A program made the position numbers and the translations under genes. Of a stretch of DNA of 64,000 bases, positions 17,575-17,656 are shown in pieces. The DNA comes from Nannocystis pusilla. GTDB lineage: Bacteria > Myxococcota_A > Polyangia > Nannocystales > Nannocystaceae. Each line of letters opens with the position of its first letter. Position 1 is the stretch's first letter. The stretch is taken from NCBI RefSeq assembly GCF_026626665.1, contig NZ_JAPNKE010000002.1, positions 1,549,204 through 1,613,203 on the forward strand. The letters are read 5' to 3'. Under the pieces are notes generated by a model. That model worked only from the letters and a program-made list of their open reading frames with translations, searched no databases and was not told where the DNA came from.

Positions 17575-17656
17575 TGGGGCATGTCGCTGCGGACATGCCC
17601 TTTTTCGCATGCTCGAAGGGACATGCCCGCAAGGGCATGTCCCGAAGCGCATGTAG
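17575..17656. repeat. Six-unit tandem array of 14-bp units with a GGRCATGYCC core, between convergent genes.
   Basis: gggGCATGTCgctgc / ggACATGCCCttttt / cGCATGCtcgaag / ggACATGCCCgcaag / ggCATGTCCcgaag / cGCATGTagatcg. The CATG cores fall at 14-bp intervals. Confidence 0.85.

What the first reader, a model, noticed from the sequence alone, without database searches (positions are those of the whole stretch)
17575..17656. A 14-bp tandem repeat built on the palindrome GGRCATGYCC, dispersed at 15 or more loci in 64 kb
The same element recurs at 418-444, 3372-3395, 4890-4956, 7861-7887, 8621-8680, 11430-11492, 17575-17656, 22860-22903, 25163-25196, 27264-27322, 34352-34392, 34628-34654, 37178-37296, 40503-40572 and 56052-56076, and single copies lie at 206, 2941, 4207, 10385, 23370 and 58112. 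In the well-preserved arrays the CATG cores are spaced at exactly 14 bp (six units at 17575, five at 40503, four at 8621). A given 10-mer of this kind is expected well under once per 64 kb by chance. Its CATG core is AT-containing, which makes it even rarer in ~72% GC DNA. The 14-bp phasing of a dyad-symmetric site suggests cooperative binding of a dimeric protein along the helix. Alternatively it could be a REP/BIME-like selfish minisatellite. I do not recognise this as a described element.
Basis: seen in the sequence. Interest (0 to 1): 0.85.

Follow-up and report, generated by a model that had tools for sequence, protein, structure and literature searches.

The report
Nannocystis hairpin repeat at gene ends
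The 14-bp CATG repeat is real: it is an apparently undescribed, REP/BIME-like family of hairpin-forming palindromic repeats, seen so far only in the myxobacterial genus Nannocystis, that fills about half of the gaps between genes that end facing each other.

Summary
GGRCATGYCC occurs 10 times against 0.4 expected, and CATG-CATG distances of exactly 14 bp occur 21 times against a background near 0.5. The window is a Nannocystis pusilla-like genome. A scan of 185,579 species genomes found the two-unit pattern almost only in Nannocystis, and three close outgroup loci lack it.

The arrays are not operators. With independent gene calls they occupy 14 of 28 convergent, 2 of 36 co-directional and 0 of 26 divergent intergenic gaps. 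They start a median 14 nt after a stop codon.

In two-unit elements the variable R/Y positions are complementary between neighbouring units, not within a unit. What is maintained is therefore a 24-nt inverted repeat (10-bp stem, 4-nt loop). Because each arm is itself palindromic, arrays can grow in 14-bp steps.

Orthologous arrays persist across species, but their copy number varies and their spacers are scrambled.

Best reading: a genus-specific REP/BIME-like repeat that acts, if at all, as a symmetric stem-loop at the 3' ends of converging transcripts. It has no GTAG head, no U-tract, and no RAYT transposase in the 0.9 Mb sampled. How it spreads, and why cores and phasing stay fixed, is unknown. 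A protein-bound lattice remains possible.

The parts
17577..17656 (.). Six-unit array with CATG cores at 17580, 17594, 17608, 17622, 17636 and 17650. It lies between the stop of the Ser/Thr-kinase-TPR gene (+, TAG at 17567-17569) and the PD40 gene (-, stop at 17727). Units 1+2 and units 4+5 are perfect inverted repeats, and units 1+2 are followed by TTTTT.
   Evidence: RNA fold is -58.4 kcal/mol (z = -7.0) on the + strand and -51.8 (z = -7.3) on the - strand. The array is identical in N. pusilla L107, has five units in N. exedens L108, and is only a degenerate remnant in N. punicea.
40507..40572 (.). Five-unit array with cores at 40510-40566, plus an out-of-phase CATG at 40504. It lies between a + strand gene (40155-40373) and the 3' end of a TetR-family gene (-, about 40565-41245).
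   Evidence: The orthologous four-unit array in N. punicea lies 6 nt after TetR and 4 nt before a GST gene. Fold z = -3.7 and -3.1.
8634..8685 (.). Four-unit array with cores at 8637, 8651, 8665 and 8679. It starts right at the stop codon (TGA at 8630-8632) of the CAP-domain gene 7868-8632 (+). The next gene is about 500 nt downstream (co-directional context).
   Evidence: Fold z = -3.8 on the + strand.
22860..22897 (.). Array with cores at 22863, 22877 and 22891, plus an extra CATG at 22884. It lies between rpiA (+, ends 22850) and a hypothetical gene (-, ends 22909): convergent.
   Evidence: Orthologous arrays of 2-5 units are present in N. pusilla, N. exedens, N. bainbridge and N. punicea. 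None is present in N. radixulma, where the neighbouring gene differs.
27266..27317 (.). Three units with cores at 27269, 27297 and 27311, between a + strand gene (stop at 27252-27254) and the DNA methyltransferase gene (-). Two units overlap the methyltransferase's last codons (stop at 27290-27292).
   Evidence: The C-terminal tail DMSPEPCP* is encoded by the repeat units. The tail and the three-unit layout are conserved in six genomes.
37179..37296 (.). Two sub-arrays: cores at 37182 and 37196, and cores at 37258 and 37287 flanking a unit with a 1-nt insertion (GGACAgTGTCC). They lie between gene 36674-37024 (+) and gene 37296-38972 (-): convergent.
   Evidence: Orthologous elements are present in N. 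punicea L102 and N. radixulma L103.
4892..4946 (.). Three units with cores at 4895, 4909 and 4937 (spacing 14 and 28), between two + strand genes (4000-4788 and about 4896-6494): co-directional.
7864..7890 (.). Two-unit element with cores at 7867 and 7881, in a divergent gap between 7530-7808 (-) and 7868-8632 (+). This is one of the rare non-3' positions.
419..442 (.). Two-unit element with cores at 422 and 436; the first unit is degenerate. The flank to its left codes on the - strand, so the element is near the 5' end of, or inside, a - strand gene.
11433..11490 (.). Degenerate array: a unit at 11436, a mutated core (GATG) at 11470, and a unit at 11484. It lies about 26 nt downstream of the stop of the MFS transporter gene (-, 11518-12921): co-directional.
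25174..25203 (.). Degenerate lattice, cTGTCT-cgga-GAGCATGTCC-ggga-GGACAg, with one CATG core at 25187, between two - strand genes.
34352..34392 (.). Three units: a degenerate GATG core at about 34355 and cores at 34369 and 34383. They lie at the SDR-gene end of a 400-nt gap between two - strand genes.
34630..34655 (.). Two units with cores at 34633 and 34646, spaced 13 bp rather than 14, just downstream of the stop of the NHL-repeat gene (-).
   Evidence: N. punicea has three in-phase units 30 nt after the orthologous stop.
56052..56078 (.). Two-unit element with cores at 56055 and 56069, between two - strand genes (the DUF4215 protein and 56234-56968).

Best explanation
This is a family of extragenic palindromic repeats, found so far only in Nannocystis, that is REP/BIME-like in behaviour but has its own architecture.

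Architecture:
- The building block is the 10-bp near-palindrome GGRCATGYCC.
- Two blocks separated by exactly 4 nt form a 24-nt inverted repeat (10-bp stem, 4-nt loop).
- Each arm is itself palindromic, so any arm can pair with either neighbour. Arms can therefore be gained or lost in 14-bp steps.
- This gives in-phase arrays of 2-7 units with conserved cores and unconstrained, AT-enriched spacers.

Shown:
- The genus-restricted distribution.
- The strict lattice.
- Occupancy of about half of all convergent intergenic gaps and near-absence from divergent ones.
- Proximity to stop codons.
- Complementarity between units rather than within them.
- Persistence at orthologous sites, with turnover in copy number and spacers.

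Inferred:
- The arrays are transcribed as the extreme 3' ends of the converging mRNAs.
- Because the lattice reads the same on both strands, they give both transcripts the same strong stem-loops. These would act as a bidirectional transcript-end element: a barrier to read-through or to 3' exonucleases, and possibly to ribosomes when within about 15 nt of the stop, as E. coli REPs do.
- Array length changes by replication slippage.
- The family spread as selfish DNA into positions where insertion is harmless.

The agent that keeps cores and phasing constant across the genus is unknown.
For: Distribution:
About 70 of the 80 listed are Nannocystis; the rest are single hits in unrelated taxa.
- Lag-14 CATG pairs number 407 against about 10 in 90 Nannocystis loci.
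- Outgroup loci with Lhr 82%, 78% and 75% identical have 0 lag-14 pairs and 0 units in about 24 kb each.

Lattice:
- The 10-bp unit occurs 331 times against 11.6 expected.
- TGYCC-N4-GGRCA occurs 338 times against 8.8 expected.
- N3, N5 and N6 spacings, and GGRCA-N1/N2-TGYCC, are at chance.
- Terminal units are as complete as internal ones.

Context:
- 67 convergent, 23 co-directional and 1 divergent; median 14 nt from the stop codon.
- In gaps not used to pick the loci: 26/57 convergent, 40/302 co-directional and 7/90 divergent.
- With independent gene calls: 14/28, 2/36 and 0/26.

Hairpin:
- In two-unit arrays both R/Y positions are complementary between units in 51 of 103 pairs, against 20.2 +/- 4.0 expected.
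- Inter-unit covariation is reached by 0 of 500 shuffles; intra-unit covariation is below the shuffles.
- A compensatory T-A to C-G change is seen between orthologous arrays L044 and L048.
- Array folds have z-scores from -3 to -7 on both strands.

Turnover:
- Orthologous arrays differ in copy number: 6 vs 5, 4 vs 6, 4 vs 5, 3 vs 2.
- Spacers are about 50-70% identical where flanks are 84-94% identical.
- An evident 14-bp duplication is present in L079.
- 7 of 219 adjacent spacers are near-identical, against 1.7 expected.
- An array supplies the C-terminal tail and stop of the methyltransferase gene.

Precedent: REPs are extragenic, number over 100 per genome, and form regularly spaced alternating clusters (PMC2817692). 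REPs within 15 nt of a stop codon stall ribosomes (cited in PMC12306157).
Against: - There are no expression data, so transcription of the arrays and any effect on RNA are inferred.
- A run of at least 4 T follows only 5 of 177 arrays, so these are not canonical intrinsic terminators.
- In co-directional arrays G.U and A.C mismatches are equally common on the sense strand (32 vs 35). There is therefore no RNA-specific signal.
- Array sizes fall off smoothly (69, 49, 27, 19, 13 arrays with 2-6 cores), with no excess of even numbers.
- In arrays of four or more units, inter-unit complementarity is at chance (48 vs 42.9).
- A hairpin needs only complementarity. It does not explain why the same core sequence and exact 4-nt spacing are kept at every locus and in every species while spacers are scrambled. 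That points to a sequence-specific agent not identified here.
- There is no GTAG-type head, and no RAYT gene was seen.
Confidence: 0.55

Rival explanations
1. Protein-bound DNA lattice. A sequence-specific Nannocystis protein binds the GGRCA/TGYCC half-sites on double-stranded DNA in 14-bp register and coats the array. At convergent gene ends it would act as a bidirectional roadblock or insulator, or recruit a topoisomerase to relieve positive supercoils, as E. coli BIMEs bind gyrase and IHF.
For: - Cores and exact spacing are conserved genus-wide while spacers are essentially random.
- Spacing tolerance is nil: N3 and N5 are at chance.
- There is no G.U/A.C strand bias and no parity preference.
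- Long arrays show no inter-unit complementarity beyond chance yet keep the cores.
- TGYCC-N4-GGRCA has the 5-N4-5 layout typical of dimeric helix-turn-helix operators (own knowledge: FNR box, Cheo box).
- BIMEs and REPs are known protein-binding sites (PMC2817692).
Against: - In two-unit elements the variable positions are symmetric about the spacer between units at both the inner and the outer pair, giving a full 24-nt inverted repeat.
- They are anti-correlated within the 10-bp dyad.
- No candidate protein has been found.
- Several thousand sites per genome (extrapolated) would need a very abundant binder.
Confidence: 0.2
2. Purely selfish mobile DNA with no host function. The hairpins would be substrates of a RAYT/IS200-IS605-type single-strand transposase or another copying mechanism, and they accumulate at convergent 3' ends only because insertions elsewhere are removed by selection.
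For: - Presence/absence and copy-number differences exist between species at orthologous gaps.
- An array lies inside the 3' end of the methyltransferase reading frame.
- Two paralogous methyltransferase genes both carry arrays.
- The safe-haven distribution resembles that of REPs (PMC2817692).
Against: - There is no conserved asymmetric head such as GTAG next to the hairpin (flank composition).
- tblastn with E. coli RayT found nothing in 0.9 Mb of Nannocystis DNA, though that is only a few percent of one genome's worth per species.
- Arrays persist at the same convergent gaps across the genus, with cores intact while spacers are saturated. Neutral junk would not do this unless constantly re-copied.
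Confidence: 0.15
3. Canonical Rho-independent terminators that merely happen to share a sequence.
For: - Units 1+2 of the 17577 array form a 9-10-bp stem followed by TTTTT directly after the kinase gene's stop codon.
- A few orthologues end in T-runs (L030 and L069).
Against: - Only 5 of 177 arrays have at least 4 T within 12 nt downstream, and A-runs are as frequent.
- Consensus terminator-like sites in window 8001-28000 are at chance (5 against 4.0 expected), and none lies at an array.
- Independent terminators would not share one stem sequence.
Confidence: 0.05
4. Operator arrays of a transcription-factor regulon, or start-codon or leader elements, since many CATG cores coincide with the ATG of mechanically listed ORFs.
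For: - Several ORFs start at a core CATG: 7868+, 7883-, 4896+, 25189-, 56057- and 58124-.
- A few two-unit elements lie 5' of genes (418, 7864, 34352).
Against: - 0 of 26 divergent gaps are occupied, against 14 of 28 convergent.
- The ORF starts are expected by construction, because every CATG gives an ATG on both strands and frames stay open in 72% GC DNA.
- The implied N-termini are not convincing.
Confidence: 0.03

Closest known systems
REP elements and BIME clusters of Gammaproteobacteria (E. coli, Pseudomonas REPINs, Xanthomonas, Stenotrophomonas SMAG)
   Same: - Short GC-rich extragenic palindromes in very high copy number.
- They lie at gene 3' ends and between convergent genes, and are rare between divergent genes.
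- Many lie within about 15 nt of a stop codon.
- They form regularly spaced clusters.
- They are taxon-specific in sequence.
- Copy number varies between relatives.
- The stem-loop is similar in size (24 nt here).
   Different: - There is no GT(A/G)G head.
- Each arm is itself a palindrome, so clusters are strictly periodic (14 bp) tandem arrays rather than alternating REPs separated by other motifs.
- Spacers and loops are unconstrained.
- No RAYT gene has been identified.
- It is found in Myxococcota, and occupancy of convergent gaps (about 50%) is very high.
HIP1 (GCGATCGC), the highly iterated palindrome of cyanobacteria (PMC5861425)
   Same: A short palindrome that is enormously over-represented in one bacterial lineage, whose maintenance mechanism and function remain unexplained.
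   Different: HIP1 is hyper-abundant genome-wide, in some cyanobacteria more than one motif per gene on average (PMC5861425); that it also lies inside genes and is not arrayed is own knowledge. The Nannocystis unit is extragenic, arrayed in phase and tied to 3' ends.
Bidirectional intrinsic terminators shared by convergent genes (own knowledge: full-length RNA profiling studies in E. coli)
   Same: A symmetric stem-loop placed between convergent stop codons that looks the same to both transcripts.
   Different: Those hairpins are flanked by A- and U-tracts and have locus-specific sequences. These usually lack U-tracts and all share one sequence.
Tandem palindromic operators bound cooperatively, e.g. 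MetJ metboxes (8-bp palindrome, 2-5 tandem copies; own knowledge)
   Same: In-phase tandem copies of a short palindrome.
   Different: Metboxes lie in promoters of one regulon. These arrays lie at 3' ends in an extrapolated several thousand loci per genome, and their symmetry is between units, not within them.
Neisseria DUS and Haemophilus USS uptake sequences occurring as inverted pairs in terminators (own knowledge)
   Same: Genus-specific 10-12-mers, about one per few kb, often as inverted pairs just downstream of genes.
   Different: Uptake sequences are not palindromic, are not in phased arrays, and also occur inside genes. Competence in Nannocystis was not examined.

Membership tests
REP (RAYT-associated repetitive extragenic palindrome) | Extragenic, with high copy number (over 100 per genome) | tested here: met
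   About 15 loci lie in this 64-kb window. 177 arrays were found in 0.77 Mb of Nannocystis DNA, and 16 occupied gaps in 104 kb chosen by protein rather than by pattern. Extrapolated to a 12-13 Mb genome this is some 2,000-3,000 arrays. Exact 10-mers in the window all lie outside confident coding regions.
REP (RAYT-associated repetitive extragenic palindrome) | Imperfect palindrome of about 20-40 nt able to form a stem-loop | tested here: met
   The two-unit element is a 24-nt inverted repeat with covariation between arms. The folds are much more stable than shuffles.
REP (RAYT-associated repetitive extragenic palindrome) | Conserved asymmetric 5' tetranucleotide (GTAG, GTGG or similar) next to the stem | tested here: not met
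   Flank composition of 102 two-unit elements shows only further degenerate half-sites (T-G-x-C-C in register) and no GTAG-like head. REP consensus sequences are listed in PMC2817692.
REP (RAYT-associated repetitive extragenic palindrome) | A cognate RAYT (Y1/HUH transposase) gene in the genome, typically flanked by the REPs | tested here: inconclusive
   tblastn with E. coli RayT against 0.9 Mb of Nannocystis DNA gave only spurious hits; E = 0.7, inside a methylmalonyl-CoA-mutase-like ORF judged from its sequence, no family search run. Whole genomes could not be scanned.
BIME (bacterial interspersed mosaic element) | [quoted passage not shown] | tested here: inconclusive
   Regular spacing is met, and more strictly than in BIMEs. 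Alternation of the two mirror-image unit types (GGACATGCCC and GGGCATGTCC) is enriched in two- and three-unit arrays but at chance in arrays of four or more.
BIME (bacterial interspersed mosaic element) | Conserved non-REP motifs between the REPs | tested here: not met
   The 4-nt spacers have no consensus; the commonest 4-mer accounts for 10 of 359.
Canonical intrinsic (Rho-independent) terminator | GC-rich stem-loop immediately followed by a U-tract | tested here: not met
   The stem-loop is present. A run of at least 4 T follows in 5 of 177 arrays, no more often than A-runs. The consensus scan gives chance-level counts and none at arrays.
Transcription-factor operator array (MetJ-like tandem palindromes) | Located in promoter or 5' regions of regulated genes | tested here: not met
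   0 of 26 divergent gaps are occupied against 14 of 28 convergent. The median distance is 14 nt after a stop codon.
Transcription-factor operator array (MetJ-like tandem palindromes) | Each palindromic unit is internally symmetric (the two half-sites of one dimer) | tested here: not met
   Intra-unit covariation is below shuffles (491 of 500 at least as high), and G..C occurs within a unit in 2 of 102 cases.
Rfam RNA families | Match to a curated covariance model | tested here: not met
   There was no match at any array at gathering thresholds.
HIP1-type highly iterated palindrome | Over-representation throughout the genome, including coding sequence | tested here: not met
   The half-sites GGRCA and TGYCC on their own are not over-represented (2265 against 2725 and 2573 against 3013). 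Full units are confined to intergenic arrays.

The most novel reading that the evidence does not exclude
The lattice may be the docking site of a dedicated, abundant, sequence-specific Nannocystis protein, possibly a domesticated transposase. It would polymerise in 14-bp register on the DNA (or on the hairpins) between convergent genes and serve as a bidirectional, protein-dependent transcription-termination or insulation and supercoil-relief system. That would be a genome-wide, factor-plus-site solution to convergent transcription with no described bacterial counterpart. What leaves this open: the same core and exact phasing are retained at every locus and in every species while spacers are randomised; there is no RNA-specific signature; and canonical terminators are absent.
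Probability: 0.15. Interest if true: 0.85.

Novelty: new variant of a known kind. Interest (0 to 1): 0.55.

Why it matters
If the extrapolation holds, a 12-13 Mb Nannocystis genome carries a few thousand of these arrays. About half of all convergent gene pairs are separated by one, which makes it one of the densest and most regular intergenic repeat systems seen in a bacterium, and the first noted in Myxococcota in the literature searched here.

Three features make it useful:
- The architecture is simple: one self-complementary 10-mer, a fixed 4-nt gap and free spacers.
- It carries a clean hairpin covariation signal.
- It has a sharp taxonomic boundary: present in all sampled Nannocystis and absent from the nearest sampled relatives.

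Together these make it a tractable system for three open questions about REP-like DNA: what copies it, what keeps it uniform, and whether it ends or protects transcripts where genes converge.

Practical consequences:
- The arrays can extend reading frames, as in the methyltransferase tail.
- They supply false ATG starts for gene callers.
- They are likely hotspots for assembly and alignment errors.
- They are ready-made strain-typing markers because copy number varies in 14-bp steps.

Tried and rejected
1. Start-codon or leaderless-mRNA idea. Many listed ORFs begin at a core CATG, but this follows from CATG containing ATG on both strands, and the implied N-termini are unconvincing.

2. RNA-specific selection. 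G.U and A.C mismatches on the sense strand of co-directional arrays are 32 vs 35, so there is no signal.

3. U-tract terminators. These are rare after arrays, and the consensus scan is at chance.

4. Strand asymmetry or a consensus in the spacers. None was found; the GAAG-like spacers seen in the window are not general.

5. Whole-array palindromy, or adjacent or skip-one reverse-complement spacers. These are at chance. Outer spacers of two-unit elements are only weakly complementary (0.31-0.40 against about 0.27).

6. TGYCC-N4-GGRCA as the true unit. It is as enriched as the 10-mer, and 86 isolated copies exist. However, terminal units of arrays are complete 10-mers, so both descriptions are views of one lattice.

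7. RAYT search. tblastn gave nothing real in 0.9 Mb; this is inconclusive.

8. Rfam. There was no match at the arrays.

9. Literature. Six searches found no description.

10. RpiA as a probe for sister genera. This failed because Nannocystis RpiA is closest to Xanthomonadales proteins; Lhr was used instead.

11. Methyltransferase homologues P0005 led to phage-like contigs of no use here.

12. Looking up the window's own encapsulin protein found no exact match in the collection.

13. My first GC3-based gene calls were too crude for start sites. Context was therefore taken from flank coding potential and checked against independent gene calls.
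Full report
**1. The observation**

- The segment 17575-17656 contains six CATG cores exactly 14 bp apart. Most are embedded in GGRCATGYCC.
- Across the window the 10-mer GGRCATGYCC occurs 10 times, against 0.40 expected from dinucleotide shuffles.
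- CATG-CATG distances peak sharply at 14 (21 pairs), 28 (12) and 42 (8), against 0-1 at neighbouring distances.
- Tandem Repeats Finder reports period-14 arrays at 8637, 17607, 37180 and 40507.
Two are degenerate (11430, 25163), one has 13-bp spacing (34628), and one is a single unit inside a coding frame (3372).
- The unit is GGRCATGYCC plus a 4-nt spacer.

**2. Where it occurs**

- The window is 71.6% GC and carries myxobacterial genes: Ser/Thr kinases, DUF4215 proteins and cNMP-binding type 2 encapsulin shells.
About 70 of the 80 listed are from Nannocystis (N. exedens, N. punicea, N. bainbridge, N. radixulma, strain RBIL2 and MAGs). The rest are single hits in unrelated taxa.
- In 90 high-GC loci from that scan, lag-14 pairs number 407 against about 10 at other lags.
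- The window itself is 96.5% identical to N. pusilla GCA_049337375.1 over 20.7 kb.
- Three outgroup loci were chosen through the Lhr helicase at 82%, 78% and 75% identity; Nannocystis species are at 87-92%. They have no lag-14 pairs and no units in about 24 kb each.
- One outgroup locus (L111) carries isolated CTGTCC-N4-GGACAG hairpins inside a 61-bp tandem repeat.
- The element is therefore real, is not an assembly artefact, and in the sample available is confined to one genus.

**3. The lattice**

- In 0.89 Mb of Nannocystis DNA the 10-bp unit occurs 331 times (11.6 expected), and the complementary view TGYCC-N4-GGRCA occurs 338 times (8.8 expected).
- Spacings of 3, 5 or 6 nt, or 1-2 nt inserted in the core, are at chance.
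- Arrays have 2-7 units, with a smooth fall-off (69, 49, 27, 19 and 13 arrays with 2-6 cores).
- Terminal units are as complete as internal ones.
- Adjacent spacers are as different as random pairs, apart from a small excess of near-identical neighbours (7 against 1.7 expected) that marks recent 14-bp duplications.

**4. Genomic context**

- Using coding potential in the flanks, 67 arrays lie between convergent genes, 23 between co-directional genes and 1 between divergent genes. The median distance from the stop codon to the array is 14 nt.
- In intergenic gaps that were not used to select the loci, arrays occupy 46% of convergent, 13% of co-directional and 8% of divergent gaps.
- With independent gene calls on five protein-selected Nannocystis loci (104 kb), the figures are 14/28, 2/36 and 0/26.
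- In the window the large arrays (17577, 22860, 27266, 37179, 40507) are all convergent.
- Some arrays run into reading frames. The DNA methyltransferase next to 27266 ends in DMSPEPCP*, encoded by two repeat units, and this tail is conserved in other species.
- This distribution is the reverse of what operators would show.

**5. What is symmetric**

- The variable positions flanking CATG (R at -1, Y at +1) discriminate between models.
- Within a unit they are complementary in only 34% of cases; between neighbouring units the figure is about 50%.
- In two-unit arrays both positions are complementary between units in 51 of 103 pairs, against 20.2 +/- 4.0 expected. The excess is smaller in three-unit arrays (34 against 21.2) and absent in arrays of four or more units (48 against 42.9).
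- On an alignment of 102 distinct two-unit elements, the inter-unit hairpin has a covariation score of 0.153 against 0.119 +/- 0.009 (0 of 500 shuffles reach it). A-U, G-C and G-U states are all present at the R/Y pairs.
- The intra-unit palindrome scores below its shuffles, and the G..C state is almost absent (2 of 102).
- Orthologous arrays show at least one double, pair-preserving change (L044 and L048).
- The basic element is therefore a 24-nt inverted repeat with a 10-bp stem and a 4-nt loop. Because each arm is self-complementary, any arm can pair with either neighbour, which explains why arrays extend in 14-bp steps.
- Arrays fold far better than shuffles on both strands (z from -3 to -7).

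**6. Evolution**

- Orthologous gaps in six Nannocystis genomes usually retain an array, but with different unit numbers: 6 vs 5 downstream of the kinase gene, 2-5 downstream of rpiA, and 4 vs 6, 4 vs 5 and 3 vs 2 elsewhere.
- Some species have only degenerate remnants or nothing.
- Between orthologous units, positions +/-2 and +/-3 are 82-89% identical, +/-1 is 64-71% identical (purine-purine and pyrimidine-pyrimidine switches), and spacers are 50-70% identical. Flanks are 84-94% identical.
- Cores and phasing therefore persist while spacers drift.

**7. Mechanism**

Shown:
- A high-copy extragenic hairpin repeat, found so far only in this genus, concentrated at convergent 3' ends close to stop codons.
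- Gains and losses in 14-bp steps.

Inferred:
- The arrays form the extreme 3' ends of both converging transcripts.
- Being two-fold symmetric, they give both the same stem-loops. These could limit read-through, block 3' exonucleases and, within about 15 nt of a stop, impede the terminating ribosome. These roles are documented for E. coli REPs (PMC2817692; PMC12306157 citing earlier work).

Against a canonical terminator role:
- T-runs follow only 5 of 177 arrays.
- Consensus terminators are at chance in the window.

Against any RNA-specific selection:
- G.U and A.C mismatches are balanced on the sense strand.

Unexplained by hairpin formation alone:
- One core sequence and one exact spacing are kept everywhere.
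- Either continual copying or a sequence-specific protein must be involved. I could not identify either: tblastn with E. coli RayT found nothing in 0.9 Mb, which is inconclusive.

**8. Comparison with known systems**

- It behaves like REP/BIME elements in abundance, extragenic 3' location, stem-loop, clustering and taxon specificity.
- It fails two defining features of RAYT-type REPs: it has no GTAG-type head and no conserved inter-REP motifs. A third feature, the cognate RAYT, is untested at genome scale.
- It is not a canonical terminator, not an operator array, not HIP1-like (the half-sites are not over-represented on their own) and not in Rfam.
- Searches of the paper library found no description of it, nor of any REP family in Nannocystis.

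**9. Verdict**

The alternative (REP/BIME-like) is supported by analogy.
- I class it as a new variant of a known kind: an apparently undescribed, strictly periodic, hairpin-based extragenic repeat family of Nannocystis.
- The most novel reading not excluded is a protein-bound lattice that terminates or insulates convergent transcription. I give it about 15%.

Noticed in passing
window 22207-22850 (rpiA), 27290-28562 (DNA methyltransferase), 14475-17569 (Ser/Thr kinase-TPR), 43520-47992 (Lhr helicase): Four conserved genes are each split over two reading frames in the window, whereas orthologues in other Nannocystis genomes are intact (213, 424, about 1031 and about 1490 aa). The window differs from N. 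pusilla GCA_049337375.1 by 71 gap openings in 20.7 kb at 96.5% identity. This suggests indel errors in the assembly rather than pseudogenes.
   Followed up: partly
window 27266-27317 and 27290-28562 (-): The last eight codons and the stop of an N6/N4 DNA methyltransferase (PF01555) are encoded by repeat units, giving the tail DMSPEPCP*. The tail is conserved as DMSPEACP in N. punicea and DMSSEPCP in N. radixulma. A paralogous methyltransferase in N. radixulma (L038) also has an array right after its stop. Whether this enzyme methylates CATG was not tested.
   Followed up: partly
window 50321-51724 (-) and 51805-53061 (-); Rfam hits at 51183-51685 (+) and 52676-53163 (+): There are two adjacent SrpI-like type 2 encapsulin shell genes, each with an N-terminal cyclic-nucleotide-binding domain. 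The only Rfam matches in the window (RF02735, Saccharopolyspora antisense sRNA 350; 89 and 124 bits) lie antisense to their shell domains. They probably reflect conservation of the coding sequence.
   Followed up: no
window 42442-42689; L111 15290-15480: A 121-bp tandem repeat (2.0 copies, 98% identical) lies just downstream of the fpg-like gene next to Lhr. In an outgroup myxobacterial MAG, the gap downstream of the gene following Lhr (Fapy_DNA_glyco/H2TH domains) holds a different tandem repeat: 61-62 bp, 3 copies, each with a CTGTCC-N4-GGACAG hairpin.
   Followed up: partly
window 54888-55533, 55548-55644, 57795-57995: Long in-frame tandem repeats lie inside predicted secreted proteins: period 96 and 192 in the cysteine-rich DUF4215 protein gene, and GGT-rich period 3, 15 and 33 repeats in the PA14-domain protein gene.
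   Followed up: no
L102 15840-16481 and window 22207-22850: Beyond the genus, Nannocystis RpiA is most similar (about 75% identity) to RpiA of Xanthomonadales (Thermomonas, Luteimonas, Lysobacter), and no other myxobacterium appears among the 120 best hits. This suggests horizontal acquisition.
   Followed up: no
whole window: The + strand has a strong G over C excess (G 39.3%, C 32.4%), even though most confidently called genes are on the - strand.
   Followed up: no
window 17668-17705: Between the six-unit array and the stop of the PD40 gene there is a separate, unrelated GC-rich inverted repeat (GTCCCCGGCG ... CGCCGGGGAC), conserved in N. pusilla. This convergent gap therefore carries an ordinary hairpin as well as the array.
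   Followed up: no
window 37255-37296; L103 1430-1530: Some units have a 1-nt insertion in the core (GGACAgTGTCC, GGACAaTGTCT, GGACAcTGTCC) yet remain in arrays. Genome-wide this variant is at chance frequency (6 against 8.4 expected).
   Followed up: partly
consensus unit: GGRCATGYCC is a subset of the decamer half-site of the vertebrate p53 response element (RRRCWWGYYY). Literature searches with the bare sequence would therefore return p53 papers. This is a coincidence of sequence, not of biology.
   Followed up: no
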